Shown here in pieces: positions 2,383-60,539 of a stretch of 64,000 nt of DNA (its first letter is position 1; each line of letters opens with the position of its first letter). Source of the DNA: Eledone cirrhosa. Its lineage: Eukaryota. The notes beneath the pieces are model-generated. The model ran no database searches, was not told the origin of the DNA, and saw only the letters and a list, made by a program, of their open reading frames with translations. The stretch is taken from contig OZ024764.1 of NCBI GenBank assembly GCA_964016885.1, forward strand, positions 23,622,001 through 23,686,000, read 5' to 3'. The position numbers were made by a program, and so were the translations under genes.

Positions 2383-3609
2383 GTAAGATATATATTTGTA
2401 TTTTTAGTAAAGGTTGGGAACTTCTGTAATTTAAACCTGCCAATAAAATGAAAACTTTTGTTGTTGCTAGTCAGACATTGGTATTAATTTTATTGTCCTG
2501 TACATTGTCTCACATATCACAGATTAAACAGATTTTAACAATATCAACAGAAATCAATAACTTGTAAGCCTAATATCTAGCTTCCATTTTAACTATTTGA
2601 TATTGTTGTTCCCCTCCTGTCTCTTCAGGTCTTTTAGATTTCAACTTCTATCTACTGTACTATTCCATCACCAAGGCAACATTCATCTGGCTGGCAGCTT
2701 ACATCAACTACAGATCTCATCAGTGGTTCACAACAAGCTGTCTGAAAGAAACTTCCAGATATCTTCTATATCATAGCTATCAATCTCCTCCTCCTTATCA
2801 TATGTACCACTCTCACAGTCCCTCTAGATCTTATATTTAACAAGGAGATCTTTTACTATCTCTACCCTTTTCTCTAGGTTGTCTTGTACCACTCTCACAG
2901 TCCCTATAGATCTTATATTTAACGGGGAGATTCTTTACTGTCTCTACTCTTTTCTCTAGGTTGTCTTGTACCTCTCTCACAGTCCCTATATATATCTTAT
3001 ATTTAACAGGGAGATTTTTTACTATCCCTACCCTTTTCTCCAGATTGTCTTGTATCTCTTTTACAGTCCCTCTAGATCTTATATTTAACAGGGAGATCTT
3101 TTACTAGCCCTACCCTTTTCTCTAGGTTTTCTTTTACCTCTCTCACAGTCCCTCTAGATCTTATATTTAACAGGGAGATCTTTTACTCTCCAACCCTTTT
3201 CTCTAGGTCGTCTTGTACCTCCCTCACAATCCCTGTAGATCTTATATTTAACAGGGAGATCTTTTACTCTCCAACCCTTCTACAGATAGTCTTGTATATG
3301 TCATTACCTCTAGATCTTACACCTCGTATCTAGTCTATGTTGAGTGGTACGTCTTTCTCCAGTAAAGGAGTTAATATTCCCAACCATCTGTCTATCCTGT
3401 TTTCTGATGAGAATGAAGTCAATCTAGTTTATCTCTTCACCTGATTGAAGTAACTAGATCAAGTAACTAGATGGTTTCCTGTAAGTTAGTGTTGCAGTGT
3501 TTGTGTCACCATGTAAGGTTTATATCTATTAATATAGAGATGTAGTAAAGTTTTCACTGTTGTATCTCTACTTTCTAAATATCTTAATAATGTTTCTCTA
3601 CTATTTCAG
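2383..3609 (+). other. Predicted 3'UTR intron (equivalents 19826-21143, 43323-44534, 56579-59065)
   Basis: Donor CAG|GTAAGA ~205 nt after the stop codon and acceptor TTTCTCTACTATTTCAG|AAT, both conserved in all four units. An AATAAA lies ~60 nt inside (2442). Confidence 0.5.
2805..3325. repeat. ~82-bp tandem repeat, ~6 copies (also 20445-20855, 43745-44260, 57125-58795 interrupted)
   Basis: Unit CTCTCACAGTCCCTCTAGATCTTATATTTAACAGGGAGATCTTTTACT...CCTTTTCTCTAGGTTGTCTTGTAC recurs every 81-84 bp. Confidence 0.92.
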
Positions 3610-4875: not shown

Positions 4876-5435
4876 ATCATCATCACTGTTTAACATCAGT
4901 TTTTTCACGCTGGCATGGGTTAGACGAGTTATCCTGTTGTAAGCAAAGCCAGGTCAGGTGATAATGTGTTGCTCCTACAGAACAAATTTTGGTTTGGTTT
5001 CTGCAGCTGGATGCCCTTCCTAGCACCAACCTTATTTACATTGAGTACTGGGTGCATTTTATCATCTCACCATCAGGACCACTTTACAGTGTAGGCTGGG
5101 TGCTTTTTGTTGTGACACATACATGACCACTTTATACTGTGGACTGGGTACTTTTTGTTGTGACACCTACACGACCCCTTTAAAGTTTGGGCTGGGTACT
5201 TTTTGTTGTCACCTACATGACCACTTTACAGTGTGGACTGGTTTCTTTTTGTCATATCACCTACATGACCACCTTATAATGTTGACTGTGTGTTCTTTAC
5301 AGTGTGGGCTGGTTTCTTTTTGTCATATCACCTACATGACCACCTTATAATGTTGACTGTGTATTCTCTATAGTGTGGGTTGGGTGCTTCTTGTCATATC
5401 TCCTACCCAACCACTTTGCAGTGTGGGCAGTGAAA
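4876..5435 (-). mobile_element. RTE-related 3' end/non-autonomous element with internal tandem repeats (also ~22410-22830, ~45790-46320)
   Basis: (CAT)n tail remnant; similar to RTE 3' ends at 13537-13790 and 58230-58512; repeated GACCACTTTACAGTGTGGGCTGGGT motif. Confidence 0.65.
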
Positions 5436-9008: not shown

Positions 9009-9784
9009 TAAAAAATATATATATAGAGAGAGAAACACAAACATACACTACTGTATTACATATGTCAGGGGAGACAACTCTCGTTACATCCACCCTTCTT
9101 TTTGATATACATTCATTAAATACTTTGTTCAATGGAACCTGCTTTATTTTGTGTCCTAAGTAGATTTCTGTTTAAGTATTTACGTGATTCACAATGATTC
9201 ACGTAACCAAGTTACTTACATAGAGATATATTTCACATAGAATCACAACAAATGAAAATATTAAGTCAACACTCTGTCAATCAGTCTCACATCACATGGG
9301 GTGCTGGAGTCTCCCTCTAATACTTTCTGAGACAGTCTTACCTCGAGTGATAGCAAGGCTAAGATGTTGGAACTACCAAACAGCCTCATATGTATCACCT
9401 GACACCTCGGTAAGGAGAGCTGCCAACGATAACAAGAACCTCGTTGTCAGGGACCTATCTCCTCCAAACTTCTCCAACACCCCAGACTAGAATATTCTAC
9501 TCTTTATTCCCTATCAAATATTTTTCAGTCTAGTCATTTATCTTGTATCTTGTATATGTATTTTCAAAACTAACTGTCACATTTGTGAGAACCCAGTTAG
9601 TGATGTTTTTGTCTCCCTCCCACATCCTACATGCTGTAGTAAAAGTGAGGGTCACTGCTTCCGTAGACGAACGAAATAAAAGTTAAACTACCAGTAATTA
9701 TCGGCAAAGTATTTATACCAGTCTGTGATGTTTGAGAAGCTGGGCTGCTGACAACGAAGTTGTGGTCACTGTTGGCGGCTGGCT

Positions 9785-9968
9785 TTACCGAAGTACCCGA
9801 TGACTCTTGTGAGGGTACTTAGCTGTTCTGGCGGTTTAGCCTCCATGACATGATTTTACTGAGATACCCGGTGATCTCTGTCAGGGTACTTAGCTGTTCT
9901 GGCGGTTTAGCCTCCATATGACCCGATTTACCGAAGTACCCGGTGATCTCTGTAAGAGTACTTAGCTG
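9785..9968. repeat. ~65-70-bp tandem repeat upstream of the promoter (3 copies here, 2 in other units)
   Basis: Recurring TTACCGAAGTACCCG...GTACTTAGCTGTTCTGGCGGTTTAGCCTCC. Confidence 0.8.
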
Positions 9969-11384: not shown

Positions 11385-11665
11385 TACTAAGGTGTTGAAA
11401 TAACCAGGTACCCTCACGGGTATCACCTGGTACCTCAGTAAGGTGAGGCTAAGGTGCTGAAATAACCAGGTACCCTCACGGGTATCACCTAACACCTCGG
11501 TAAGGTGAGGCTAAGGATCTGAAATAACCAGGTACCCTCACGGGTATCACCTGACACCTCGGTAAGGTGAGGCTAAGGGGCTGAAATAACCAGGTACCCT
11601 CACGGGTAGCACCTGACACCTTGGTAAGGTGAGTCTAAGGGGCTGAAATAACTAGGTACCCTCAC
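11385..11665. repeat. 62-bp tandem repeat, ~4.5 copies
   Basis: GCTGAAATAACCAGGTACCCTCACGGGTATCACCTGACACCTCGGTAAGGTGAGGCTAAGG repeated. Confidence 0.9.
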
Positions 11666-15076: not shown

Positions 15077-15240
15077 TGTTGGTTCAGTGCACCCTAGGGG
15101 ATGTTAGTGTTGGTTCAGTCCACTCTGGGGGATGTTAGTGTTGGTTCAGTCCACTCTGGGGGGTGTTAGTGTTGGTTCAGTCCACCCTGGGGGGTGTAAG
15201 TGTTGGTTCAGTCTACCCTGAGGGGTGTCAATGTTGGTCA
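15077..15240. repeat. 31-bp tandem repeat, ~5 copies
   Basis: TGTTGGTTCAGTCCACTCTGGGGGATGTTAG repeated. Confidence 0.9.
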
Positions 15241-15671: not shown

Positions 15672-18253
15672 CATTCTCTCTCAACTCATCTATGCTTGGT
15701 CGTTGATGCACATTGACATTGCACATCCAACGGAGCATACTTGCTTCATTTCTCTCCAGCCATCGCATATCCTCCACAGTTGCTGTCCATGTCTCACTAC
15801 CGTGCAGCATCACACATCTCACGCGGGCATCACCAGCCATTCGTTCTTAGGGAGAAACGCTTCTTTGTCAACAGAGGAAGCAGCTCCCTAAACGTCTTCC
15901 AACCTGTCCTTATTCTAGATACTATGGTCTCACAGCACCCTCCCCCCATGCTAATCTGATCACCTAGGTATCAGAAGCTATCAACCACCTGTAGAGCCTA
16001 CCTGCATTTGAAAAATGTGTCTATCACTGCAACTTCTACTGTCAAATTTCCCTGTACATCTACTGCATATGTAGTTTTCCCTACCTGTTAGTTTGCCTGC
16101 TATCCCACTACATTTCTTGTGTACCCAAAATCTGCATTGTGTACATTATAGAATTTATGCCAGTTCCTTTTCTACATATCGAACAAGGCCATTTCCCTGA
16201 TGGAATGACAGTTTTGTCCTCTTTTCTACTCATCAACACTTTAGTCTTAGCTAGGTTCACTCTCAGTCCTCTTGATTCCAACTGCTGTTGCAATAGCCAG
16301 AATTTATTCTCTAGCTCCTCTACTGATTCTGCTATAAGAACCAGATCGTCAGCATAGAGAAGTTCCCATGGGCAGCCAGTCTTAAACTCTTCTGTTATGA
16401 CTTGGAGGACTATAATGAACAAGAGCGTGCTGAGGACCGAAACCTGATGTACTCCTACTTGTATTCTGGAATTCCTCACTAAACTCCATGCCTACCCTCA
16501 CTTTACTGACAGCACCTCTGTACATAGCTTGCACTGTCCTCACAAACTATTCCTCTACACCTAGTTTCCTTAGGGACCACCAGATGACAGATTGGGGTAC
16601 TCTATCAAAGGCCTTCTCTAGGTCAACAAAAACTAAGTATAGTGGTTTTTTTCTCTAAGAACCTCTCTTGTAGTTGTCTCACTAAGAAGAGGGCATCTGT
16701 TTGACTCTTTCTCTAAGTTGTGCTAGTATTCTTTCTGTCACTTTCATAACCTGATCCATCAGTTTTATACCCCTATAATTACTCCCCTCCAGAACATCCC
16801 CTTTACCTTTACCTCAATTTATGAGAATACTGCTGCACCAGTCTTTGGGTATGACACCACCATATATAGCTTGATTAATGATGCATGCAACCAGTTTAAT
16901 TCCTACTTCTCTTGATGCCTTCAGCATCTCAGCAACTATCCCCAACAGTCCAGCGGACTTACCATTTTTCATTTCCTTAATTGGACCCTATAGTCATCAA
17001 TCTCAATAGCTGGTCCTTCTGTCAGGTCTACTGAATGTAGCTCCCCTCCTATTCATTCTCCACATTCATCAGTCTCTCATAATGACATTTCCAGGCCTCC
17101 TTTTTTTTGAGAATCAGTGACACTAAGTGCACCAACATCCTGATTTACACTGACACACTGCCTTGCAATGTGGATCACCGCACATCTCTGATCTCCCCAT
17201 CGCAGGACATTGGCAAACCTTCTAATCTCAGCCTCCCTGCATGTTAAGTAAACCTGACATCTAGCTTCTCTCTTAGCGGCTGTGAATCGGTCTCTACCCC
17301 TACCATTTTTCCAAGCCTTTTGTCTCTAATGGCTCTATCTACCGTGCTGTTCCACCACCAGGTCACACTCTGTCTGGTTGGAACTCTGCTCCAGCCACAA
17401 GTTTCTTCAGTAACCTGCAGTAAGTTGTCACGTAAGAAATTCCAGTTATCGTCCATGTCATAGGACTCTAAATCGTCTTCTTTTTCGTCATACACATCTT
17501 GAAGGGCTTTCCTAAATTTATATTTTAGTGAAAGGTCTTTTAGTTTCCAGACCTTCCTTTTTCAAACCTTCTTGTATGTCTCATTTTGTCTCTTGCTTAC
17601 TGAGATGTCACTAACGACTAACCTATGTTGGTGGGGTACATTGTTCCCTGGGGTATGCCTTAATATTTGACACCATCTGTCTCTCTTGCTACTTAACTAG
17701 CAAGAAGTCAATCTGTCTCATGTGCTCACCTGCTTGGTAGGTTTCTTGAAATGTTGCAAATGCTTAGTTCACTTGCATCACAAAATACAAGAAGCCTCAC
17801 TCTTTCTTCGTTTCTTGAGCCATAACCATGACCACCATGTACCCCAGTGTATCCATCCTGGAACTGTCCAACATGACCATTGAAGTCCCCTGCTATTATA
17901 ACTAGGTCTCTGTCATTGTGGTTATCTCTACTTATTCCTTTTCTACATATGGAGCAGGGCCACTTTCCTGAAGGGGTCAGGGTCTTCTCTCCTATCCATT
18001 ACCACTTTAGTTTTGGCTAAGTATATTCTCAGAACTTACCATTTCAAATTCTATATCTATAGCTGGTCATCTACATAGAGAACTTTCCATAGACAGCCAG
18101 TCTTAAACCTCTCTGTTATGGCTTGGAGAACTATGATGAACAACAGTGGGCTAAGAACTAAACCATGATGAACTCCTACCTGTACCTTCAATTCATCACT
18201 AAACACACTTTACTGACAGCTTCTCACAAGCCATTCTTCTACACCTAATTTCC
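15672..18253 (-). mobile_element. Degraded RTE LINE fragments, EN+RT (part duplicated at 35402-36027)
   Basis: Minus-strand GDFNGH, DLEKAFDRV, CPWELLYADD, GSETW; homologous to 23550-25800. Confidence 0.88.
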
Positions 18254-18257
18254 TTAA

Positions 18258-18465
18258 CCCTTTAGTATATAAACTGGCCATATCTGGCCAGAATTGTCCC
18301 ACATCTTTCTGTTCAAACTGGCCGTAACTGGTCACTTATACTTATGTTAAGGTTTTGTTCTCAAAATAATTAACATCAAAATCTCATAGATTTGATATTA
18401 TGAGAGATAAAGTATTTACTGTGAAAATATAATAGTAAATATAGAGTAATGTGAATACTAAAGGG
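18258..18465. mobile_element. piggyBac-like MITE (copy 36032-36237)
   Basis: TTAA|CCCTTTAGTAT...ATACTAAAGGG|TTAA, 208 bp. Confidence 0.8.
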
Positions 18466-18567
18466 TTAATCTGATGTCACTAATAACTACTTTTATCAGT
18501 CAGTTTAATCTAATGTCACTAATAACTACTTTTATCAGTCAGTCTAATCTAATGTCACTAATAACTA
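18466..18567. repeat. 39-bp minisatellite seed, ~2.5 copies
   Basis: Same unit as 36238-40625. Confidence 0.9.
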
Positions 18568-18689
18568 ACCTATGTTAGGCAGCACATTCTTCACCAAGGA
18601 AGGCCTTAGTATTTATTACAGTCCATTTATCAATATAGAAATATTATATGAAATTTGTACTGATGTATTACAAGTTTCTGAGTATCTTA

Positions 18690-19618
<929 letters not shown>

Positions 19619-19932: not shown

Positions 19933-20113
19933 CTTGTTTCTACTTTAGGCACAAGGCCAGCAATTATCCAGTGCATTACTGGTACTTTATTTTATCGACC
20001 CCGTAAGGATGAAAGGCAAAGTCAACCTCGGCGGGATTTGAACTCAGATCGTAAAGGGACGTAACTATGCTTGAAAGCATGTCGTCCGACCCTCTACCGA
20101 TACTGCCAATCCA
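19933..20113 (-). mobile_element. SINE-like insertion specific to paralog 2 (related fragments at 12150-12365)
   Basis: Absent at the equivalent site in the other units; minus-strand B box GTTCAAATCC. Confidence 0.7.
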
Positions 20114-21143
20114 TGTCCTGTACATTGTCTCAAATATCACAGATTAAACAGATTTTAACAATAACAACAGAAATCAATAACTTGTAAGCCTAATATCTAG
20201 CTTCCATTTTAACTATTTGATATTGTTGTTCCTCTCCTGTCTCTTCATGTCTTTTAGATTTCAACTTCTATCTACTGTACTATTCCATCACCAAGGCAAC
20301 ATTCATCTGGCTGACAGCTTACATCAACTACAGATCTCATCAGTGGTTCACAACAGGCTGTCTGAAAGAAACTTGCAGATATCTTCTATGTCATAGCTAT
20401 CAATCTCCTCCTCCTTATCATATGTATCATGTAGAACATCTCTGAATTTATATTTAGCAGGGAGATCTTTTACTGTCCCTACCCTTTTCTCTAGGTTGTC
20501 TTGTACCTCTCTCACAGTCCCTCTAGATCTTATATTTAACAGGGAAATCTTTTACTGTCTCTACCATTTTCTCTAGGTTGTCTTGTACCTCTCTCACAGT
20601 CCCTCTAGATCTTATATTTAACAGGGAGATATTTTACTATCCCTACTCTTTTCTCTAGGTTGTCTTGTACCTCTCTCATAGTCCCTCTAAATCTTATATT
20701 TAACAGGGAGATGTTTTACTGTCCCTACCTCTTTCTTTGGGTTGTCTTGTACCACCCTCACAGTCCCTCTAGATCTTATATTTAACAGGGAGATGTTTTA
20801 CTCTCCAACCCTTCTCCAGATAGTCTTGTATCTGTCAGTCCCTCTAGATCTTACACCTAGTATCTAGTCTATGTTGAGTGGTACGTCCTTCTCCAGTAAA
20901 GGAGTTAATATTCCCAACCATCTGTCTATCCTGTTTTCTGATGAGAATGAAGTCAATCTAGTTTATCTCTTCACCTGATTGAAGTAACTAGATCAAGTAA
21001 CTAGATGTTTTCCTGTAAGTTAGTGTTGCAGTGTTTGTGTCACCATGTAAGGTATATATCTATTAATATAGAGATGTAGTAAAGTTTTCACTGTTGTATC
21101 TCTATTTTCTAAATATCTTAATAATGTTTCTCTACTATTTCAG

Positions 21144-21511
21144 AATATCACATGACCTTGACAGAAAAGAGTCTTTTAAAGACAACAGAAAGATGTTACA
21201 TACAAGTGATATAAACTTGTTTAGTCTGTGGTGAATTATGGTGAAATATTTCTTTTGAATTGAGATAAATAACAACATATTCCTTTTTCACTCTCTGGAA
21301 TATTTACAAGGGTATTTTACATTCTGATTAAACTTTGGATATTTACAAAGGAGTTTTCAAAATATTTGGATATTGACAAAGATCACATTTGATAAAATTA
21401 TGAACAATAAAAATATTTACATCAACATAGGAATATTTTCCAGAAGAGATGGGAAAATCATTATACCACTGTAATATTTGTGGTAAAGTATTCTCTATTC
21501 TTTATATGTAG
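21144..21511 (+). pseudogene. Relic ZF coding exon (equivalents 3610-3975, 44535-44897, 59066-59433)
   Basis: Acceptor and leader are homologous to the functional exon (TTCACTGTCTGGAATATxTACAAGATGATTTTA). Mini-ORF MGKSLYHCNICGKVFSILYM* at 21449 is half a finger. Confidence 0.8.
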
Positions 21512-21905: not shown

Positions 21906-22961
21906 ACGTATGTGTATATTTTAACTATTTAAAAATTATTTTAAATGACTTTTAAAAAATAGTGATAAAGGAACGTGACCCAACAGGTCCCGGGTGGTCT
22001 AGTTTGTTACTAAATACTAGATATTAGAGGGTTATGTTGTTCTAGATGTGCTGGAAGAGCCATTCCATCTCGTGAGGCTCACACCAGCAGCTAGCCACCT
22101 CAGCACCTATGGTGGTATATTTATTATATTATTTATTCTTTATCATTAACATTAATATAAAAGATAATTATATATTTTTAGAGAAGAACCTCTAACTTCA
22201 TATAGCTTAGGGCTTCAGTAGATAAAAGTCTGGCCTTGCTTGTCTTGTATTTTTTAGGGGAGAAGTTAGGGAATACTGTTATTGTGTGAAAGTTTTCTAA
22301 ATCTTCTTCAGCCACTAACATGGAGAAGATATTTCAGTAAAAAGGTTCACATCCTGACATCTATAGCTGTTAACAATGAGATTGGAATTCATCATTAAAC
22401 AAATGTTATATCATCATCACTGTTTTACATCAGTTTTTCCACGCTGGCATGGGTTAGACGAGTTATCCTGTTGTAAGCAATGCCAGGTCAGGTGACCACG
22501 TCTTGCTCCTACAGAACCTATTTTGGTTTGGTTTCTACAGCTGGATGACCTTCCTAGCACCAACCTTATTTACATTGATTACTGGGTGCTTTTTACTATC
22601 TCACCAACTAGACCACTTCACAGTGTGGGCTGGGTACTTTTTAACTTTTTGTCATGACACCTACATGACCACTTTACAATGAGTACTGGGTACTTTCTGT
22701 TGTGACACCTACTTGACCACTTTACAGTGAGTACTGGGTACTTTATGTCATGACACCTACAGTACCACTTTACAGTGTGTCCTGGGTACTTTTTGTTGTG
22801 ACACCTACACGACCTCTTTACAGTGTTGGCAGTGAAATATCTAATGCACCAGCTTCAGTCATCAGAAGATCGCTGTTTTCTATATTATAATTTTATAATA
22901 TACATATACACACACAAACACAAATATATATATATATATATAAATTTTTTTATTTTTTATA

Positions 22962-25900
22962 TGACCATGCTGCAAAATGGAGGCGCAGAGAAGGCCCTTG
23001 CGTCTAGTAAGACATCCTCTCTAGTGCTGGTGGCACAAATAAAAGCACCCAGTCCATGCTGTAAAGTGGCGCTGGTGTTAGGAAGGGCATCCAACCAGTG
23101 TATCAATGCCAAAACGCTTATCAGCACAGCAACAAATAGGAACAACAAAAAAATATGAAGACGTCGCATCTCAGAGTTGCAACACTTAATGTTGGCACTC
23201 TCACAGGTAGATCTGCTGAAATAGCGGAGATGCTGGAGAGAAGGCATGGAGATGTGTGCTGCGTGCAAGAGGTGAGATGGAGAGGTGCCTCTGCGAGACT
23301 AGTCGTAGGCAAACATCTTAGCTATAAGCTTTTCTGGGTAGGTAAGGATGATCGGTTAGGGGAGTAGGCATTTTCCTGGCTGAGAGATGGATCAATAAGA
23401 CAATAGAGGTAGTTCGAGTTAGTAATAGAATAAGCTTAGATTAGTTGTAGGCAAGAGACGACTGACAATCATCTCTGCCTATGCTCCCCAGGCAGGCCTA
23501 GGCAAAGATGAGAAAGACTGCTTTTATGAGCAACTTTTACAAACAGCCGCAATGACAGAGGACGGAGACATCGTTATGCTAGTAGGGGACTTCAATGGTC
23601 ATGTTGGACAGCTCCAGGATGGATACACTGGGGTACATGGTGAGCACAGTTACGGGTCAAGAAATGAAGAAGGAGTGAGACTTCTTGAATTTTGTGATGC
23701 AGGTCCATTGACTATTTACAACACAAACTTCCAGAAACCTGTCAATCACCTAATAACCTACAAATCTGGCAAGCACATAAGCCAGATTGACTTCTTACTA
23801 GTTAGGCAGCGGGACAGGCAGATAGTGTCTAATACCAAGGCATACCCTGGGGAAGAATGTACCCCACAGCATAGGTTAGTTGTTAGTGATATCTCAGTAA
23901 GCAAGAGATGGAATGAGACATACAGGAAGGTGTGGAGAAGAAAGGTCTGGAAGCTAAAAGACCTTTCACTAAAATACAAATTTAGGAAAGCCCTTCAAGA
24001 TGTATATGACGAAAAAGAAGACGATTTAGAGACGTATGACATAGATAATAACTGGAATTTCTTACGTGACAACTTTCTGCAGGCTACTGATGAAACTTGT
24101 GGCTGGAGCAGAGCTCCAACCAGACAGAGAGTGACCTGGTGGTGGAACAGCACAGTAGATAAGGCCATTAGAGACAAAAGACTAGCATGGAAGGCTTGGA
24201 AAAAGGGTGGGAGTAGGGAAGAATATACAGCCGCTAAGAGAGAAGCTAGATGTCAGGTGTACTTAGCACACAGGGAGGTTGAGAGTAGGAGGTTTGCCAA
24301 TGTTCTGCGACGGGAAGATCAGGGTCAATGCAAATCAGGATGTTGTTGGAGATAAATGTGTCTGGAATGATGCCGGTGTACTTAGTGTCACGAATGATCA
24401 GAAAAAGGAGGCCTGGAAATGTCATTATGAGAGACTGATGAATGTGGAGAACGAATGGGGGAGAGAGAAATTACCCTTAGTAGATCCGAGAGAGGGACCA
24501 GCTATTGAGATTGACGAATATAGGGTCCAAGAGGCAATTAAGGAAATGGAAAATGGTAAGGCTGCTGGACCATCGGGAATAGTTGCTGAGATGCTGAAGG
24601 CATCAGGAGACGTAGGCACTAAACTGGTTGCACGCATCATCAATCAGGCTATATATGGTGGTGTCATACCCAAAGACTGGTGCAGCAGTATTCTCATAAA
24701 TTGCTACAAAGGTAAAGGGGATGCTCTGGAGAGGAGCAATTATAGGGGTATGAAAGTGGCAGAAAGGATATTAGCACAACTAATTAGAGAACGGGTCAAA
24801 CTAGATGAGATGCAGTTTGGTTTTGTGCCTGGGAAGAGTACAACAGATGCCCTCTTCTTGGTGAAACAATTGCAAGAGAGGTTCTTAGAGAAAAATAAGC
24901 CACTCTACTTAGCCTTTGTTGACCTAGAGAAGGCCTTTGATAGGGTACCCCGATCTGTCATCTGGTGGTCCCTAAGGAAACTAGGTGTTGAGGAATGGCT
25001 TGTGAGGACAGTGCAAAGTTTGTACAGAGGTACTCTCAGTAAAGTTAGGGTAGGAATGGAGTTTAGTGAGGAATTCCAGATACAAGTAGGAGTACATCAA
25101 GGTTCGGTCCTCAGTCCACTCTTGTTCATTATAGTCCTCCAAGTCATAACAGAGGAGTTTAAGACTGGCTGTCCATGGGAACTTCTCTATGCTGACGATC
25201 TGGTTCTTATAGCAGAATCAGTAGAGGAGCTAGAGAATAAATTCTGGCTATGGAAACAGCAGTTGGAATCAAGAGGACTGAGAGTGAACCTAGCTAAGAC
25301 AAAAGTGTTGATGAGTAGAAAAGAGGACAAAACTCTGATTCCGTTAGGGAAATGGCCATGTTCGATATGCAGAAAAGGAACTGGCATAAATTCTATAAAA
25401 TGCACACAATGCAGATCCTGGGTACAAGAGATGTAGCGGGATAGCAGGCAAACTAACAGGTAGGGAGAAATATGTATGCAGTAGATGTACAAGGAAATTA
25501 GACAGTAGAAGTCGCATTGATAGCCACTGTTTTCAAATGCAGGAAGGTGCTATAGAAGTGGTGGATAGCTTCCGGTACCTAGATCAGATTAGCATGGGAG
25601 GAGGGTGTTTCGATGCCATAGTAACTAGAATAAGGACAGGCTGGAAGATGTTTAGGGAGCTGTTTCCTCTGCTGACGAAGAAAGGTTTCTCCCTGCGTAC
25701 GAAAGGCCGGTTTTATGATGCCTGTGTGAGCACCGCAATGCTGCATGGTAGTGAGACATGGGCAGCAACTGCCGAAATGAGACATCCTTTGGATGTGCGT
25801 GAACGACCCAGCATGAATGTTGAGAGAGAAACTGTGTCTGAGAGGGATAGAATGTAGTGTACGGGGGAGAAGACTGAGGTGGTATGGACATGTGATGCGC

Positions 25901-36237: not shown

Positions 36238-39200
36238 TTAATCTAATGTCACTAATAACTACTTTTATCAGTCAGTTTAATCTAATGTCACTAATAACTA
36301 CTTTTATCAGTCAGTATAATCTAACGTCACTAATAACTACTTTTATCAGTCAGTATAATCTAACGTCACTAATAACTACTTTTATCAGTCAGTTTAATCT
36401 AATGTCACTAATAACTACTTTTGTCTGTCAGTATAATCTAATGTCACTAATAACTACTTTTATCTGTCAGTTTAATCTAATGTCACTAATAACTACTTTT
36501 ATCAGTCAGTTTAATCTAATGTCACTAATAACTACTTTTATCAGTCAGTTTAATCTAATCTCACTAATAACTACTTTTATCAGTCAGTTTAATCTAATGT
36601 CACTAATAACTACTTTTATCAGTCAGTATAATCTAATGCCACTAATAGCTACTTTTGTCTGTCAGTATAATCTAATGTCACTAATAACTACTTTTATCTG
36701 TCAGTTTAATCTAATGTCACTAATAACTACTTTTATCAGTCAGTTTAATCTAATGTCACTAATAACTACTTTTATCAGTCAGTATAATCTAATGCCACTA
36801 ATAGCTACTTTTGTCTGTCAGTATAATCTAATGTCACTAATAACTACTTTTATCTGTCAGTTTAATCTAATGTCACTAATAACTACTTTTATCAGTCAGT
36901 TTAATCTAATGTCACTAATAACTACTTTTATCAGTCAGTATAATCTAATGCCACTAATAGCTACTTTTGTCTGTCAGTATAATCTAATGTCACTAATAAC
37001 TACTTTTATCAGTCAGTATAATCTAATGCCACTAATAGCTACTTTTGTCTGTCAGTATAATCTAATGTCACTAATAACTACTTTTATCAGTCAGTATAAT
37101 CTAATGCCACTAATAGCTACTTTTGTCTGTCAGTATAATCTAATGTCACTAATAACTACTTTTATCTGTCAGTTTAATCTAATGTCACTAATAACTACTT
37201 TTATCAGTCAGTATAATCTAATGTAATAACTACTTTTATCAGTCAGTATAATCTAATGTCACTAATAACTACTTTTATCTGTCAGTTTAATCTAATGTCA
37301 CTAATAACTACTTTTATCAGTCAGTATAATCTAATGTAATAACTACTTTTATCAGTCAGTATAATCTAATGTCACTAATAACTACTTTTATCAGTCAGTA
37401 TAATCTAATGCCACTAATAGCTACTTTTGTCTGTCAGTATAATCTAATGTCACTAATAACTACTTTTATCAGTCAGTATAATCTAATGTCACTAATAACT
37501 ACTTTTATCAGTCAGTATAATCTAATGTCACTAATAACTACTTTTATCTGTCAGTTTAATCTAATGTCACTAATAACTACTTTTATCAGTCAGTATAATC
37601 TAATGTCACTAATAACTACTTTTATCAGTCAGTTTAATCTAATGTCACTAATAACTACTTTTATCAGTCAGTATAATCTAATGCCACTAATAGCTACTTT
37701 TGTCTGTCAGTATAATCTAATGTCACTAATAACTACTTTTATCTGTCAGTTTAATCTAATGTCACTAATAACTACTTTTATCAGTCAGTATAATCTAATG
37801 TAATAACTACTTTTATCAGTCAGTATAATCTAATGTCACTAATAACTACTTTTATCAGTCAGTTTAATCTAATGTCACTAATAACTACTTTTATCAGTCA
37901 GTTTAATCTAATGTAATAACTACTTTTATCAGTCAGTTTAATCTAATGTAATAACTACTTTTATCAGTCAGTATAATCTAATGTCACTAATAACTACTTT
38001 TATCAGTCAGTATAATCTAAAGTCACTAATAACTACTTTTATCAGTCAGTTTAATCTAATGTCACTAATAACTACTTTTATCAGTCAGTATAATCTAATG
38101 TAATAACTACTTTTATCAGTCAGTATAATCTAATGTCACTAATAACTACTTTTATCAGTCAGTTTAATCTAATGTCACTAATAACTACTTTTATCAGTCA
38201 GTTTAATCTAATGTAATAACTACTTTTATCAGTCAGTTTAATCTAATGTAATAACTACTTTTATCAGTCAGTATAATCTAATGTCACTAATAACTACTTT
38301 TATCAGTCAGTATAATCTAAAGTCACTAATAACTACTTTTATCAGTCAGTTTAATCTAATGTCACTAATAACTACTTTTATCAGTCAGTATAATCTAATG
38401 TCACTAATAACTACTTTTATCAGTCAGTATAATCTAATGTCACTAATAACTACTTTTATCAGTCAGTATAATCTAATGTCACTAATAACTACTTTTATCA
38501 GTCAGTATAATCTAATGTCACTAATAACTACTTTTATCTGTCAGTTTAATCTAATGTCACTAATAACTACTTTTATCAGTCAGTATAATCTAATGTCACT
38601 AATAACTACTTTTATCAGTCAGTATAATCTAATGTCACTAATAACTACTTTTATCAGTCAGTATAATCTAAAGTCACTAATAACTACTTTTATCAGTCAG
38701 TTTAATCTAATGTCACTAATAACTACTTTTATCAGTCAGTATAATCTAATGTCACTAATAACTACTTTTATCAGTCAGTATAATCTACTGTCACTAATAA
38801 CTACTTTTATCAGTCAGTATAATCTAATGTCACTAATAACTACTTTTATCAGTCAGTATAATCTAATGTCACTAATAACTACTTTTATCTGTCAGTTTAA
38901 TCTAATGTCACTAATAACTACTTTTATCTGTCAGTTTAATCTAATGTCACTAATAACTACTTTTATCTGTCAGTTTAATCTAATGTCACTAATAACTACT
39001 TTTATCAGTCAGTATAATCTAATGTCACTAATAACTACTTTTATCTGTCAGTTTAATCTAATGTCACTAATAACTACTTTTATCTGTCAGTTTAATCTAA
39101 TGTCACTAATAACTACTTTTATCAGTCAGTATAATCTAATGTCACTAATAACTACTTTTATCTGTCAGTTTAATCTAATGTCACTAATAACTACTTTTAT

Positions 39201-40625
39201 CAGTCAGTATAATCTAATGTCACTAATAACTACTTTTATCAGTCAGCATAATCTAATGTCACTAATAACTACTTTTATCAGTCAGTATAATCTAATGTCA
39301 CTAATAACTACTTTTATCAGTCAGTATAATCTAATGTCACTAATAACTACTTTTATCAGTCAGTATAATCTAACGTCACTAATAACTACTTTTATCAGTC
39401 AGTTTAATCTAATGTCACTAATAACTACTTTTATCAGTCAGTATAATCTAATGTCACTAATAACTACTTTTATCAGTCAGTTTAATCTAATGTAATAACT
39501 ACTTTTATCAGTCAGTATAATCTAATGTCACTAATAACTACTTTTATCAGTCAGTATAATCTAACGTCACTAATAACTACTTTTATCAGTCAGTTTAATC
39601 TAATGTAATAACTACTTTTATCAGTCAGTATAATCTAATGTCACTAATAACTACTTTTATCAGTCAGTTTAATCTAATGTCACTAATAACTACTTTTATC
39701 AGTCAGTTTAATCTAATGTAATAACTACTTTTATCAGTCAGTTTAATCTAATGTCACTAATAACTACTTTTATCAGTCAGTATAATCTAATGTCACTAAT
39801 AACTACTTTTATCAGTCAGTATAATCTAATGTCACTAATAACTACTTTTATCAGTCAGTATAATCTAATGTCACTAATAACTACTTTTATCAGTCAGTTT
39901 AATCTAATGTCACTAATAACTACTTTTATCAGTCAGTATAATCTAATGTCACTAATAACTACTTTTATCTGTCAGTATAATCTAATGTCACTAATAACTA
40001 CTTTTATCAGTCAGTATAATCTAATGTCACTAATAACTACTTTTATCTGTCAGTATAATCTAATGTCACTAATAACTACTTTTATCAGTCAGTTTAATCT
40101 AATGTCACTAATAACTACTTTTATCAGTCAGTTTAATCTAATGTCACTAATAACTACTTTTATCAGTCAGTTTAATCTAATGTCACTAATAACTACTTTT
40201 ATCAGTCAGTTTAATCTAATGTCACTAATAACTACTTTTATCAGTCAGTTTAATCTAATGTCACTAATAACTACTTTTATCAGTCAGTTTAATCTAATGT
40301 CACTAATAACTACTTTTATCTGTTAGTTTAATCTAATGTCACTAATAACTACTTTTATCAGTCAGTTTAATCTAATGTCACTAATAACTACTTTTATCAG
40401 TCAGTATAATCTAATGTCACTAATAACTACTTTTATCAGTCAGTATAATCTAATGTCACTAATAACTACTTTTATCAGTCAGTATAATCTAATGTCACTA
40501 ATAACTACTTTTATCAGTCAGTTTAATCTAATGTCACTAATAACTACTTTTATCAGTCAGTTTAATCTAATGTCACTAATAACTACTTTTATCAGTCAGT
40601 TTAATCTACTACCACTAATAACTAA
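36238..40625. repeat. 39-bp minisatellite, ~112 copies, in predicted intron 1 of paralog 3
   Basis: Unit T(T/A)TAATCTAATGTCACTAATAACTACTTTTATCAGTCAG, with 35-bp deletion variants. Confidence 0.98.
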
Positions 40626-43118: not shown

Positions 43119-46100
43119 CTGTGTCAATATCAAACTCATTACATCATACTACTACAACAAATGTGTAGATCCATCATCCTTGCTAAAACTGGGGTCAACC
43201 TTGTAGGTTTTACCTAGGACAGGGATCATAAACACCAGGTTTCCATTTTTGAAGCAGTGTTTGAAGATTTTGTGTAAATTAAAGTTTTTCACATTAAACT
43301 TTGATTTATTATACTTTAACAGGTAAGATATATATTTGTATTTTTAGTAAAGGTTGGGAACTTCTGTAATTTAAACCTGCCAATAAAATGAAAACTTTTG
43401 TTGTTGCTAGTCAGACATTGGTATTAATTCTATTGTCCTGTACATTGTCTCAAATATCACAGATTAAACAGATTTTAACAACATCAACAGAAATCAATAA
43501 CTTGTAAGCCTAATATCTAGCTTCCATTTTAACTATTTGATATTGTTGTTCCCCTCCTGTCTCTTCAGGTCTTTTAGATTTCAACTTCTATCTACTGTAC
43601 TATTCCATCACCAAGGCAACATTCATCTGGCTGGCAGCTTACATCAACTACAGATCTCATCAGTGGTTCACAACAAGCTGGCTGAAAGAAACTTCTAGAT
43701 ATCTTCTATATCATAGCTATCAATCTCCTCCTCCTTATCATATGTACCACTCTCACAGTCCCTCTAGATCTTATATTTAACAAGGAGATCTTTTACTATC
43801 TCTACCCTTTTCTCTAGGTTGTCTTGTACCACTCTCACAGTCCCTCTAGATCTTATATTTAACGGGGAGATTCTTTACTGTCTCTACTCTTTTCTCTAGG
43901 TTGTCTTGTACCTCTCTCACAGTCCCTATATATATCTTATATTTAACAGGGAGATTTTTTACTATCCCTACCCTTTTCTCCAGATTGTCTTGTATCTCTT
44001 TTACAGTCCCTCTAGATCTTATATTTAACAGGGAGATCTTTTACTAGCCCTACCCTTTTCTCTAGGTTTTCTTTTACCTCTCACAGTCCCTCTAGATCTT
44101 ATATTTAACAGGGAGATCTTTTACTCTCCAACCCTTTTCTCTAGGTCGTCTTGTACCTCCCTCACAATCCCTGTAGATCTTATATTTAACAGGGAGATCT
44201 TTTACTCTCCAACCCTTCTACAGATAGTCTTGTATATGTCATTACCTCTAGATCTTACACCTCGTATCTAGTCTATGTTGAGTGGTACGTCTTTCTCCAG
44301 TAAAGGAGTTAATATTCCCAACCATCTGTCTATCCTGTTTTCTGATGAGAATGAAGTCAATCTAGTTTATCTCTTCACCTGATTGAAGTAACTAGATGGT
44401 TTCCTGTAAGTTAGTGTTGCAGTGTTTGTGTCACCATGTAAGGTTTATATCTATTAATATAGAGATGTAGTAAAGTTTTCACTGTTGTATCTCTACTTTC
44501 TAAATATCTTAATAATGTTTCTCTACTATTTCAGAATATCACATGACCTTGACAGAAAAGAGTCTTTTAAAGACAACAGAAAGATGTTACATACAAGTGA
44601 TATAAACTTGTTTAGTCTGTGGTGAATTATGGTGAAATATTTCTTCTGAATTGAGATAAATATTTTCCTTTTTCACTGTCTGGAATATTTACAAGATGAT
44701 TTTACATTCTGATTAAACTTTAGATATTTACAAAGGAGTTTTCAAAATATTTGGATATTGACAAAGATCACATTTGGTAAAAATTATGAACAATAGAAAT
44801 ATTTACATCAACATAGGAATATTTTCCAGAAGAGATGGGAAAATCATTATACCACTGTAATATTTGTGGTAAAGTATTCTCTCTTCTTTATATGTAGAAC
44901 ATCTAACTAAACACTTGAACTAACAAACTATTGTGCTATAGAATTGACAAACTTGAGCAATGTTTAATAAATGTTACAGATTTCTCCAAACTGTCGTTTA
45001 CTAACTTTAATTTGAAGCTATATTATCTATATACTACTAAAACTCTGTGATTGTGTCTTGTCTAATTTAATACAGCTAAAACAGTGCATAATGGGGAAAT
45101 ACTTTGAAAAGAATAAAACAATTTTTGTATAAATTGGAGCACAGGTTCCCAAGATTCAAGGTTTTCTGGGTACCTTGATATATATAGGGAGAGAAAGAGA
45201 TAGTGGTTGTGAGAGTGAGGAGACAGATGGAAGAGAGAGAGCTGGTGGTGTTGTTTAATAAAATGTGTGTGTGTATATATATATATATACGTATGTATAT
45301 TTTAACTATTTAAAAATTATTTTTAAATGACTTTTAAAAAATAGTTTTAAGGGAACGTCACCCAACAGGTCCCGGGTGGTCTAGTTTGTTACTAAATACT
45401 AGATATTAGAGGGTCATGTTGTTCTAGATGTGCTGGAAGAGCCATTCCATCTTGTGAGGTTCACACCAGCAGCTAGCCACCTCAGCACCTATGGTGGTAT
45501 ATTTATCATATTATTTATTCTTTATCATTAACATTAATATAAAAGATAATTATATATTTTTAGAGAAGAACCTCTAATTTTATATAGCTTAGGGCTTCAG
45601 TAGGTAAAGTCTGGCTCTGCTTGTCTTGTATTTTTTAGGGGAGAAGTTAGGGAATATTGTTATCGTGTGAAAGTTTTCTAAATCTTCTTCAACCACTAAC
45701 ATGGAGAAGATATTTCAGTAAAAAGGTTCACATCCTGACATCTATAGCTGTTAACAATGAGATTGGAATTCATTATTAAACAAATGTTATATCATCATCA
45801 TTGTTTAACAACAGTTTTTTCACTCTGGCATAGGTTAGACGAGTTATCCTGTTGTAAGCAATGCCAGGTCAGGTGACCACGTGTTGCTCCTACAGAACAA
45901 ATTTTGGATTGGTTTCTACAGCTGGATGCCCTTCCTAGCACCAACCTTATTTACATTGAGTACTGGGTGCATTTTACCATCTCACCATCACGACCACTTT
46001 ACAGTGTGGGCTGGGTGCTTTTTGTTGTGACACCTACATGACCACTTTAAAGTTTTGACTGGGTGCTTTTTGTCGTGACACCTACATGACCACTTTATAG

Positions 46101-47125
46101 TGTGGACTGGGTACTTTCTGTTGTGACACCAACATTACCACTTTAAAGTTTTGGCTGGGTACTTTTTGTTGTCACCTACATGACCACTTTACAGTGTGGG
46201 CTGGGTGCTTTTTGTCATATCACCTACATGACCACCTTATAATGTTCACTGTGTTCTTTGCAGTGTGGGTTGGGTGCTTTTTGTCATATCACCTACCCAA
46301 CCACTTTGCAGTGTGGGCAGTGAAATATCAGTAATGCACCAGCTCCAATATTCAGTAATCAGAAGAAGGGAGGTAGGCATAAAAGCCAAACTTGCTGTCT
46401 TCAATTAGGTTTTTGTGCCAACCCTTACCTATGGTCACATATCTTGGGTAATGACCAAAAGAATATGATTGCGAATACAAGTGGCAGATATGGGATTCAT
46501 CTGAAGGGTCTTTGAAGGAATGTTTCTCAATAAAGTGCATAGCTCTGAGATCAGAGAGTCACTCCAGGTGGAGCTGTTACTTCTCCTAATTGAGACATCA
46601 CAGCTGCAATACTATGGCCATGTGGTTAGAATGTCTGAGGAAAGAATCACTGGATAGATTTTACAGGCAAAACTAGCCAGGGGTAGACCTGAGCAAGATG
46701 GTCACATAACATCCATGAGCTTGGCTGGTCTCTCTGGGAGATCCAGCCAGATCAGTTGGAGTGGGTTTCTTCTGACAGGACCTGTTGGATGGAGTGTTTG
46801 AGGACTGCCCCCAAGACCCTCTCTGGAATGACTGAATTAATAAGAAGAGGTTGAGGTTACATCATCAACATCAGATTTCCCTGCTAGCAAGGGTTTAATG
46901 AGTCTACTTCAACCAAGTAAGTACTGAAGTGAGGCTACTGATCTCCCAGACAGACCAAGGATCTGAGACTTATTTACATAAGGTCTCATTTGCTACTGAG
47001 TGCACAGAAAAGGTTATGATTGAAGGGTTCTCCAACACTATTGTCGGGCAAGCTTTCTATGGCTAGATGTCCTTCACATGACCAACCACATTACAGCCTG
47101 TGTTGGGTGTGTTTATCATGTAGGT

Positions 47126-53177: not shown

Positions 53178-54074
53178 ACTTTTATCAGTCAGTTTAATCT
53201 AATGTCACTAATAACTACTTTTATCTGTCAGTTTAATCTAATGTCACTAATAACTACTTTTATCTGTCAGTTTAATCTAATGTCACTAATAACTACTTTT
53301 ATCTGTCAGTATAATCTACTGCCACTAATAACTACTTTTATCAGTCAGTATAATCTACTGCCACTAATAACTACTTTTATCTGTCAGTATAATCTAATCT
53401 CACTAATAACTACTTTTATCAGTCAGTATAATCTAATCTCACTAATAACTACTTTTATCAGTCAGTATAATCTAATCTCACTAATAACTACTTTTATCAG
53501 TCAGTATAATCTACTGCCACTAATAACTACTTTTATCTGTCAGTATAATCTAATCTCACTAATAACTACTTTTATCAGTCAGTATAATCTAATCTCACTA
53601 ATAACTACTTTTATCAGTCAGTTTAATCTAATGTCACTAATAACTACTTTTATCAGTCAGTATAATCTAATGTCACTAATAACTACTTTTATCAGTCAGT
53701 ATAATCTAATCTCACTAATAACTACTTTTATCAGTCAGTATAATCTAATCTCACTAATAACTACCTTTATCAGTCAGTATAATCTAATCTCACTAATAAC
53801 TACTTTTATCAGTCAGTTTAATCTAATCTCACTAATAACTACTTTATTAGTCAGTTTAATATAATGTCACTAATAACTACTTTTATCAGTCAGTATAATC
53901 TAATGTCACTAATAACTACTTTTATCAGTCAGTATAATCTAATGTCACTAATAACTACTTTTATCAGTCAGTTTAATCTAATGTCACTAATAACTACTTT
54001 TATCTGTCAGTATAATCTACTGCCACTAATAACTACTTTTATCAGTCAGTTTAATCTAATGTCACTAATAACTA
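53178..54074. repeat. 39-bp minisatellite, ~23 copies, in predicted intron 1 of paralog 4
   Basis: Same unit, enriched in AATCTCAC and TACTGCCAC variants. Confidence 0.97.
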
Positions 54075-56944: not shown

Positions 56945-57344
56945 CTTCTATCTACTGTACTATTCCATCACCAAGGCAACATTCATCTGGCTGACAGCTT
57001 ACATCAGCTACAGATCTCATCAGTGGTTCACAACAGGCTGTCTGAAAGAAACTTCCAGATATCTTCTATGTCATAGCTATCAATCTCCTCCTCCTTATCA
57101 TATGTATCATGTAGAACATCTCTGAATTTATATTTAAGAGGGAGATCTTTTACTGTCCCTACCCTTTTGTTAGATTGTCTTGTACCTCTCTCACAGTCCC
57201 TCTAGATCTTATATTTAACAGGGAGATCTTTTACTGTCCTTACCCCTTTTGTTAGATTGTCTTGTACCTCTCTCACAGTCCCTCTAGATCTTATATTTAA
57301 CAGGGAGATCTTTTACTATCCCTACGCTTTATTTAGGTTGTCTT

Positions 57345-58512: not shown

Positions 58513-60539
58513 TGTCTTGTACCTCTCTCACAGTCCTCTAGATCTTATATTTAACAGGGTGATATTTTACTATCTCTACCCTTTTCTCTAGGTTGTCTTG
58601 AGCCTCTCTCACAGTCCCTGTAGATTTTATATTAAACAGGGAGATGTTTTACTGTCCCTACCCTTTTCTCTAGGTTGTCTTGTACATCTCACAGTCCCTG
58701 TAGATCTTATATTTAACAGGGAGATCTTTTACTCTCCAACCCTTCTATCTCCAGATAGTCTTGTATCTGTCAGTCCCTCTAGATCTTACACCTAGTATCT
58801 AGTCTATGTTGAGTGGTACGTCCTTCTCCAGTAAAGGAGTTAATATTCCCAACCATCTGTCTATCCTGTTTTCTGATGAGAATGAAGTCAATCTAGTTTA
58901 TCTCTTCACCTGATTGAAGTAACTAGATGGTTTCCTGTAAGTTAGTGTTGCAGTGTTTGTGTCACCATGTAAGGTTTATATCTATTAATATAGAGATGTA
59001 GTAAAGTTTTCACTGTTGTATCTCTACTTTCTAAATATCTTAATAATGTTTCTCTACTATTTCAGAATATCACATGACCTTGACAGAAAAGAGTCTTTTA
59101 AAGACAACAGAAAGATGTTACATACAAGTGATATAAACTTGTTTAGTCTGTGGTGAATTATGGTGAAATATTTCTTCTGAATTGAGATAAATAACAACAT
59201 TTTCCTTTTTCACTGTCTGGAATATTTACAAGATGATTTTACATTCTGATTGAACTTTGGATATTTACAAAGGCGTTTTCAAAATATTTGGATATTGACA
59301 AAGATCACATTTGATAAAATTATGAACAATAGAAATATTTACATCAACATAGGAATATTTTCCAGAAGAGATGGGAAAATCATTATACCACTGTAATATT
59401 TGTGGTAAAGTATTCTCTCTTCTTTATATGTAGAACATCTAACTATACACTTTAATTAACAAACTATTGTGCTATAGAATTGACAAACTTGAGGAATGTT
59501 TAATAAATGTTACAGATTTCTCCAAACTGTCGTTTACTAACTTTAATTTGAAACTATATTATCTATATACTACTACTAAAATTCTGTGATTGTGTCTTGT
59601 CTGTAATTTAATACAGCTAAAACAGTGCATAATGGGGAAATACTTTGAAAAGAATAAAACAATTTTTGTATAAATTGGGGCACAGGTTCCCAAGATACGG
59701 GGTTTTCTGGGTACCTTCATAAATATAGGGAGAGAAAGAGATAGTGGTTGTGAGAGTGTGGATTGAAAAGGAGAGATAGAAGGAGATGGAAGGAAAGGGG
59801 AAGAGAGAGACAGAGACCTGGTGGTGATGTTTAATAAAATGTGTGTGTATATATATATATGTGTGTCTATATATATATATGTCTATATTTTAACTATTTG
59901 AAAATTATTTTTAAGTGAACATGATTTTAGAAAAAATAGTTTTAAGGGAACGTGACCCAACAGGTCCCGGGTGGTCTAGTTTGTTACTAAATACTAGATA
60001 TTAGAGGGTCATGTTGTTCTAGATGTGCTGGAAGAGCCATTCCATCTCGTGAGGCTCACACCAGCAGCTAGCCACCTCAGCACCTATGGTGGTATATTTA
60101 TTATATTATTTAATTTGCTGTTGATCTCAGTTACCACTTTCACCATTATCCAATCCCTTAGCTGTCACCATGTTTTATCAAATGTTCAACCATACTGTTG
60201 TCACCAATCTAGTAAATATTCAATCTCTCAGCTGTCACCTAATTTTAAATGTTCCACCATCCTGTTGTCACCTATCTGTAGTAGATATTCCATCTATCAT
60301 CTGCCACTAGTTTCTTGTAAGTACTGAAGTGAGGCTACTGATCTCCCAGACAGACCAAGGATCTGAGACTTATTTACATAAGGTCTCATTAGCTACTGAG
60401 TGCACAGAAAAGCTTGTCATGTCTTTGTCATGATTGAAGAGTTCTCCGACACTATTGTCGGGCAAGCTTTCTATGGCCAGATGTCCTTCACATGACCAAC
60501 CACATTACAGCCTGTGTTGGGTGTGTTTATCATGTAGGT

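What the first reader, a model, noticed from the sequence alone, without database searches (positions are those of the whole stretch)
18466..18612. The 39-bp minisatellite appears to be born from LINE endonuclease coding sequence
Seen: the last repeat runs into AATGTCACTAATAACTAACCTATGTTAGGCAGCACATTCTTCACCAAGGAAGGCCTTAGTATTT. Its reverse strand reads NTKAFLGEECAA*HRLVISDIRL, matching RTE endonuclease NTKAYPGEECTPQHRLVVSDIS at ~23831-23896. About half of the unit is therefore antisense RTE EN sequence. The array starts exactly at the TTAA TSD of a piggyBac-like MITE. The seed (~2.5 copies) and expanded states (~112 and ~23) coexist at equivalent positions, a snapshot of satellite birth.
Basis: partly seen in the sequence, partly recalled or inferred. 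Interest (0 to 1): 0.75.

Follow-up and report, generated by a model that had tools for sequence, protein, structure and literature searches.

The report
Satellite grown from LINE endonuclease relics
A 39-letter DNA repeat made largely, and likely wholly, from pieces of dead jumping genes sits at the same spot in about 190 copies of a zinc-finger gene, where it runs from one unit to likely thousands, so one genome shows a tandem repeat at every size from trace to satellite; the process itself is a known one.

Summary
The array runs without a break into an 87-bp antisense RTE endonuclease fragment (79% over 62 nt to the window's RTE, E 2.7e-10; 76/87 to a closer subfamily). 24 of the 39 bp are RTE. 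The other 15 bp match 14/15 the coding linker of a second RTE relic 2.3 kb away (0 of 62 other RTE linkers come under 4 mismatches), so the unit is likely all LINE and probably a chimera. The TTAA edge is not a true target duplication: the MITE joins two RTE TTAA sites about 1.08 kb apart. The locus is one of about 190 paralogs in a C2H2 zinc-finger cluster; parsed arrays hold 1-202 units, and three sampled intervals indicate 64, 83 and over 141 kb. Short arrays are scattered over the paralog tree in 11 haplotypes, so the 2.6-copy state is not shown to be a surviving seed, and the 23-copy array is a deletion product. TE-derived satellites, also from LINE ORF2, are known; the replicate series and the chimeric unit are what add interest.

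The parts
17935..18257 (-). Reverse-transcriptase part of the RTE relic, with internal gaps; ends at a TTAA in the LRKLG motif
   Evidence: blastn to the window RTE (91% over 34, 84% over 131, 71% over 103 nt) and to the closer subfamily
18254..18469 (.). piggyBac-like MITE (18258-18465, 11-bp inverted ends) between two TTAA sites that lie about 1.08 kb apart in intact RTE
   Evidence: same MITE family in the same RT TTAA of an unlinked RTE copy with both flanks intact (L196)
18466..18567 (+). 39-bp array X-Y-X-Y-X: X = 24 bp (18466-18489, 18505-18528, 18544-18567), antisense end of RTE endonuclease; Y = 15 bp (18490-18504, 18529-18543)
18545..18631 (-). 5'-truncated RTE endonuclease piece, continuous with the last X
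   Evidence: 76 of 87 columns match the majority of 24 copies of a closer subfamily, best copy 78 of 87; 59 of 87 to the window RTE
18632..18711 (+). Intron end and likely splice acceptor (AG at 18710-18711) of the zinc-finger module
   Evidence: conserved in distant zinc-finger modules L236, L238, L239, which have no RTE hit upstream; splicing is inferred, no RNA laid
18923..19615 (+). C2H2 zinc-finger ORF, 230 aa
   Evidence: Pfam zf-C2H2, 7 stretches, E 9.7e-49
20241..21030 (-). Second, older RTE relic holding the 82-bp minisatellite (20448-20853) as an internal expansion; 20825-20839 is the best match to Y
   Evidence: profile hits on both sides of the array, E 1.1e-30 and 5.1e-36; Y match 14/15; outgroup copy L237 reads in frame through this place
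36239..40624 (+). Paralogous array, 113.6 copies, same MITE and RTE edges
   Evidence: flanks 1.8% from the short copy
53178..54074 (+). Paralogous array, 23 copies, left side removed by a deletion into inserted GC-rich sequence
   Evidence: same junction in L021 and L024
23429..25857 (+). Frameshifted RTE-type LINE used as local reference
   Evidence: Exo_endo_phos_2 E 1.2e-4 (below Pfam's cut-off) and RVT_1 E 8.2e-28; homologs named CFDP2-like

Best explanation
The 39-bp repeat consists of 24 bp from the end of the endonuclease region of an antisense RTE LINE fragment plus 15 bp likely copied from a neighbouring RTE relic, and it was multiplied with its zinc-finger module into about 190 loci whose arrays differ in length from one unit to likely thousands. 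Steps: (1) shown: a 5'-truncated RTE lies antisense about 80 bp upstream of the likely acceptor. (2) inferred: a short template switch to the second RTE relic and back made X-Y-X. (3) shown as structure, inferred as event: about 1.08 kb of RTE between two TTAA sites was replaced by one MITE (recombination between two MITE insertions, or a deletion from a MITE end), which fixed the left edge inside a unit. (4) shown: the module was duplicated in tandem, paralogs now 2.7% apart. (5) inferred: unequal exchange and conversion within and between arrays spread derived units inward, left RTE-like alleles at the MITE edge, and moved lengths both up and down; arrays of 1-3 units are slow states. No function is needed or shown.
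For: RTE match and continuity with the flank. Y: 14/15 to 20825-20839, same orientation, 12 bp past the place homologous to X; 0 of 3000 shuffles match that 850-bp piece so well, 21 of 3000 anywhere in the masked window; best match in 62 other RTE linkers has 4 mismatches; the 30-bp context of that match was listed only on C25 (first 100 of 209 matches). RTE-like alleles sit at the MITE edge: X allele 50 of 128 first units against 6 of 2395 others, Y allele 35 of 118 against 332 of 2442 (paralogs are not independent). Subfamily carries TTAA at the RT site in 9 of 14 copies shown, and L196 has the MITE there. 185 exact right edges. 128 parsed arrays 1-202 units, median 11. 19 of 20 probes in four long gaps are array. 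Of 28 pairs with flanks within 0.5%, 8 of 8 short-short pairs have equal length, 3 of 18 longer pairs.
Against: Y also aligns to the direct continuation of the closer subfamily (about 12 of 15 with two indels; p 0.0015-0.06 against background, 0.035-0.17 against shuffles), so a plain duplication is open. The Y match was noticed after the fact, and the switch needs an 11-12 bp skip with little microhomology. The locus differs from the sampled subfamily at 11-12 of 87 sites, 6 of 12 shared with the neighbour relic, so the exact parent is not in hand. No intermediate (X only, or MITE-free) was found. The paralog tree is star-like, 38 of 93 inner branches open, unrooted. Long arrays were sampled, not read through, and rest on one assembly.
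Confidence: 0.65

Rival explanations
1. Y is the diverged direct continuation of the same RTE copy; the unit arose by plain slippage between short direct repeats (Haber-Louis type), with no second donor.
For: In the closer subfamily a 5-bp word stands just before X and again 42 bp on, where Y would end; anchored alignment of Y to 24 continuations beats background at p 0.0015-0.06; 6 of 60 sampled RTE loci carry an internal tandem repeat, two of them with 8 and 27 copies.
Against: Needs about three substitutions and two indels in 15-17 bp, and leaves the 14/15 match to the neighbour relic to chance; the locus does not have the 5-bp word before X.
Confidence: 0.25
2. The MITE caused the birth: X-Y-X was made in one repair event at a MITE end, together with the deletion.
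For: All 128 parsed arrays with an intact left side begin at the MITE TTAA; no MITE-free site found; the edge unit keeps RTE-like alleles.
Against: A piggyBac-type end can join only at TTAA and X holds one, so the coincidence is expected under any order; RTE-derived arrays form without a MITE (82-bp array, L209, L059). The order of events is not resolved here.
Confidence: 0.15
3. The 2.6-copy array at 18466 is a never-expanded survivor of the founding state. This is a claim about this copy and can hold together with the best explanation.
For: It has the RTE-like first X and an RTE-like last X; its five-member clade is uniformly 2 Y and its nearest longer relative is 1.65% away.
Against: The same two ends bound longer arrays (L151, L102, L120); 11 haplotypes among 23 short arrays are built mostly from variants common inside long arrays; L175/L179 (2 units) lie 0.35% from a 7-unit array; a 1-unit state exists twice with different alleles (L029, L113). 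In 88 loci chosen by position, 10 have 3 units or fewer.
Confidence: 0.35
4. The unit is an independent, widespread satellite and the RTE likeness is chance.
For: One 55-bp copy lies outside the cluster (L072); 12,957 of 13,057 matches were not listed.
Against: E 2.7e-10 and 5.4e-16; continuity with an RTE flank; no listed match on C1-C24 but the orphan; sampled long arrays plus ordinary loci roughly account for the total.
Confidence: 0.01

Closest known systems
SINE-derived satellites (sSat) of squamates, PMC10702118 (abstract and Discussion read)
   Same: Tandem array whose terminal unit runs on into the parent element; loci from a few to about 1000 units; seen as stages of satellite emergence.
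   Different: Parent is LINE ORF coding sequence; all loci descend from one event through segmental duplication of a gene module; unit likely has two donors; sizes likely exceed 3,600 units.
TE-derived human minisatellites, PMC3389668 (passages)
   Same: Unit similar to, and overlapping, a TE; 7,276 cases, 23% of minisatellites and satellites there; start by local duplication, later expansion.
   Different: That survey explains 6% of starts by known mechanisms; here a specific donor for the second part can be pointed at.
Satellites with LINE ORF2 sequence: PROsat, Pvc 20, chicken HinfI from CR1, as reviewed in PMC9659126 (passages)
   Same: Satellite sequence derived from LINE coding region.
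   Different: In the passages seen these are similarities of a monomer part to a LINE; a retained parent flank and a paralog series are not described there.
MITE-borne satellites (Xstir, miDNA4, bivalve HindIII), PMC9659126 (passages)
   Same: A MITE next to a growing tandem repeat.
   Different: Here the unit is outside the MITE and owes it no sequence; the MITE only bounds it.

Membership tests
TE-derived tandem repeat | Unit has significant similarity to a TE | tested here: met
TE-derived tandem repeat | Array continuous with, or overlapping, the parent TE copy | tested here: met
   last X runs into 18568-18631; RT part lies beyond the MITE
TE-derived tandem repeat | Whole unit is TE sequence | tested here: inconclusive
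   24 bp certain; 15 bp match RTE two ways
RTE-clade LINE (parent) | APE endonuclease followed by reverse transcriptase in one reading | tested here: met
   window reference copy: Pfam hits, endonuclease hit below curated cut-off; non-LTR RTs best in PDB; CFDP2-like homologs (the CFDP2-RTE link is recalled)
RTE-clade LINE (parent) | RT phylogeny places it in the RTE clade | not tested
   no reference set of LINE clades on hand; the label RTE rests on the features above and on recall
piggyBac-type MITE | TTAA on both sides, short inverted ends starting CCC, dispersed copies | tested here: met
   36 listed junction matches outside the cluster (not fetched); L196 read
piggyBac-type MITE | The two TTAAs are a duplication of one target | tested here: not met
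   they map about 1.08 kb apart in RTE
piggyBac-type MITE | Autonomous partner with matching ends | not tested
   not searched
Haber-Louis minisatellite origin | Short direct repeats flank the first unit | tested here: inconclusive
   5-bp repeat in the subfamily, not in this locus
Satellite DNA | Arrays of tens of kb or more | tested here: met
   probes in three intervals: 6 of 6, 5 of 5, 6 of 7 are array; continuity between probes inferred
Satellite DNA | Heterochromatic state | not testable with these tools
   no chromatin data
Founding seed state | Short state basal, one ancestral haplotype | tested here: inconclusive

The most novel reading that the evidence does not exclude
The unit is a chimera stitched from two different LINE relics by one template switch, its two-unit founding haplotype still survives in some paralogs, and the zinc-finger cluster holds about 190 replicate runs of the same repeat from 1 to over 3,600 units inside gene introns: a natural experiment in which birth, growth to satellite and collapse, and their effect on the host genes, can be measured in one genome.
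Probability: 0.3. Interest if true: 0.72.

Novelty: new variant of a known kind. Interest (0 to 1): 0.52.

Why it matters
How a minisatellite starts and how it becomes a satellite is usually argued from one locus or from a consensus. Here the donors are still attached or nearby, and gene duplication has made about 190 replicates with identical flanks and lengths over more than three orders of magnitude. That allows direct tests of length-dependent mutation, polarity, edge retention of old alleles and exchange between paralogs, and of whether kilobases of repeat 150 bp from an acceptor silence a zinc-finger gene. It changes no principle: TE origin of satellites is established, and no function is shown.

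Tried and rejected
X-only locus: 0 matches. MITE-free junction: 0 matches. Neither shows absence. RTE copy with X followed by Y-like sequence: 1 match, an array variant; strict pattern on old copies, weak test. The linker of the exact parent subfamily was not sampled, which leaves Y's origin open. The protein search was out of frame and is disregarded; the DNA tests stand. The first tree (122 rows) had long branches from insertions; it was replaced by a projected alignment of 102 of 122 rows (20 dropped for under 500 aligned columns). Idea that the two RTE relics are one ancient insertion: their flanks are homologous (74%), but the pieces are of different subfamilies (50 of 87) and three distant modules have no RTE, so independent insertions are preferred. 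Orphan L072 as read-through from the SINE-in-array loci L160/L167: orientations disagree. Run X6 covers the intron but not Y: a part without cover, no evidence. Contig depth was not used as copy number. No RNA holder listed. The octopus genome paper of 2015 is not held; its remark on 70-90 bp repeats near C2H2 genes is recalled only. Paper searches with no hit; listings show no title on this repeat. Supplements were not read.

Full report
Setting. The window is G000:C25:23622001-23686000 of a 3.0-Gb genome, likely an octopod (inference from the tandem C2H2 cluster and homolog names). It holds repeated modules of 15-20 kb, each with an 84-bp finger array, an 82-bp minisatellite and the 39-bp repeat. 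The ORF at 18923-19615 has 7 Pfam zf-C2H2 stretches.

Observation. The sequence, translation and three arrays are as described. The reverse strand of 18552-18613 matches the window's RTE-type LINE at 79% over 62 nt, E 2.7e-10, and 0 of 200 shuffles reach the score. A profile of 30 unlinked copies gives E 5.4e-16. A closer subfamily (30 loci fetched) extends the piece to 18545-18631; 76 of 87 columns match the majority of the 24 copies with a readable X. The array is X-Y-X-Y-X with X 24 bp and Y 15 bp; X is the end of the endonuclease region.

The left edge. Left of the MITE lies the RT part of an RTE in the same orientation. The TTAA at 18254 is the subfamily's own site in the LRKLG motif (9 of 14 copies shown), and an unlinked copy, L196, has the same MITE family in that site with both flanks intact. 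The TTAA at 18466 is inside X. About 1.08 kb of RTE between them is gone. So the MITE marks a deletion and the two TTAAs are not one duplicated target. Whether the deletion came after the first duplication or with it is not resolved: no X-only locus and no MITE-free site was found.

Origin of Y. Two alignments exist. To the direct continuation of the closer subfamily Y aligns at about 12 of 15 with two indels (p 0.0015-0.06 against background, 0.035-0.17 against shuffles, four alleles tested). To the second RTE relic in the same module it matches 14 of 15 without gaps at 20825-20839, same orientation, 12 bp past the place homologous to X; 0 of 3000 shuffles do as well in that piece, 21 of 3000 anywhere in the masked window; 62 other RTE linkers have 4 or more mismatches. 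An outgroup copy of that relic (L237) reads in frame through this place, so the segment is LINE coding sequence. Its 30-bp context was listed only on C25 (first 100 of 209 matches). I put about 0.85 on Y being RTE and 0.6 on the neighbour relic as donor. The alleles of X and Y that resemble RTE are enriched in the unit next to the MITE (50 of 128 against 6 of 2395; 35 of 118 against 332 of 2442; shared descent inflates the test), as expected if edges escape homogenisation.

The paralog series. 185 exact right edges were counted; the 100 listed lie at C25:19.1-22.6 Mb, and other lists extend the cluster to 23.9 Mb. I parsed 128 arrays with both edges: 1-202 Y copies, median 11; among 88 chosen by position, median 13.5 and 10 with three or fewer. 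Flanks differ by 2.7% at the median (102 rows). The unit has 13,057 matches; of the 100 listed, 99 are in the cluster and one is a 55-bp orphan beside a SINE on C3. Probes across long gaps show array in 6 of 6 (83 kb, about 2,100 units), 5 of 5 (64 kb, about 1,650), 6 of 7 (over 141 kb, over 3,600) and 2 of 2 (over 20 kb); continuity between probes is inferred. TE insertions and deletions interrupt several arrays; the window's 23-copy array is such a deletion product.

Seed or contraction. Short arrays need 10 changes on the flank tree, at least 4 forced by starred branches (unrooted, bootstrap unsettled). The 23 arrays with one or two Y fall into 11 haplotypes made mostly of variants common in long arrays; L175/L179 are 0.35% from a 7-unit array. 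The ends of the 18466 array recur as ends of arrays of 5, 9 and 11 units. Against this, its clade is uniformly short, 1.65% from any longer array, and keeps RTE-like ends. Seed: about 0.35. Contigs of runs X5 and X8 hold a 69-bp piece over the unit with one difference (the size a collapsed 39-bp tandem would give; inference), X7 bridges MITE and array, X5 bridges RT part and MITE. If those labels are other species, the structure predates their split.

Not a one-off. The 82-bp minisatellite is an internal expansion of the second relic with both RTE flanks in order. Of 60 sampled RTE loci, 6 hold a tandem repeat on the RTE match, among them 66 bp x 8 (L209) and 50 bp x 27 (L059). An earlier unchecked note on this genome reached the same view elsewhere.

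Comparison. TE-derived minisatellites are common (PMC3389668, passages), LINE ORF2-derived satellites are on record (PMC9659126, passages), and squamate SINE-derived satellites show the same anatomy of an array running into its parent (PMC10702118, abstract and Discussion). C2H2 expansion in octopuses is known (PMC6279123, passages). Searches for this case found nothing (listings 21, 46, 53), within a library that lacks most subscription journals.

Verdict. Real, LINE-born, a variant of a known kind. Interest 0.52.

Noticed in passing
window 20448-20853, 2803-3279, 43743-44217, 57128-57344, 58513-58788; L237: 82-bp minisatellite is wholly an internal expansion of an antisense RTE endonuclease-RT linker; about 15 copies at L237, 16 Mb away. 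It may be the 70-90 bp repeat recalled from the octopus genome paper (not verified).
   Followed up: partly
L209:1005-1529 and L059:1842-3203: Independent RTE-derived arrays of 66 bp x 8 and 50 bp x 27 or more from the endonuclease region.
   Followed up: partly
L072 (G000:C3:262.36 Mb): 55 bp of the 39-bp repeat abut a SINE 96.7% identical to the SINE at window 19934-20113; possibly a templated insertion.
   Followed up: partly
L160, L167, L109, L121, L035: SINE or other TE insertions inside arrays.
   Followed up: no
window 21058-21500: Decayed second zinc-finger module, 74% like 18625-18739, with a remnant of one finger; every repeat unit seems to be a live plus a dead module.
   Followed up: partly
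L196: The same MITE family inserted in the same RT TTAA of an unlinked RTE copy.
   Followed up: yes
window 5035-5288, 22644-22825, 45992-46239: 48-bp repeats also seen in SINE-like tails at other loci (L051, L059, L069, L072).
   Followed up: no
window 15077-15238, 11387-11665, 9784-9968: Further short arrays (31, 62, 71 bp) of untested origin.
   Followed up: no
window 18466-18567: Each unit holds branch-point-like words about 150 bp upstream of the likely acceptor; any effect on splicing is untested.
   Followed up: no
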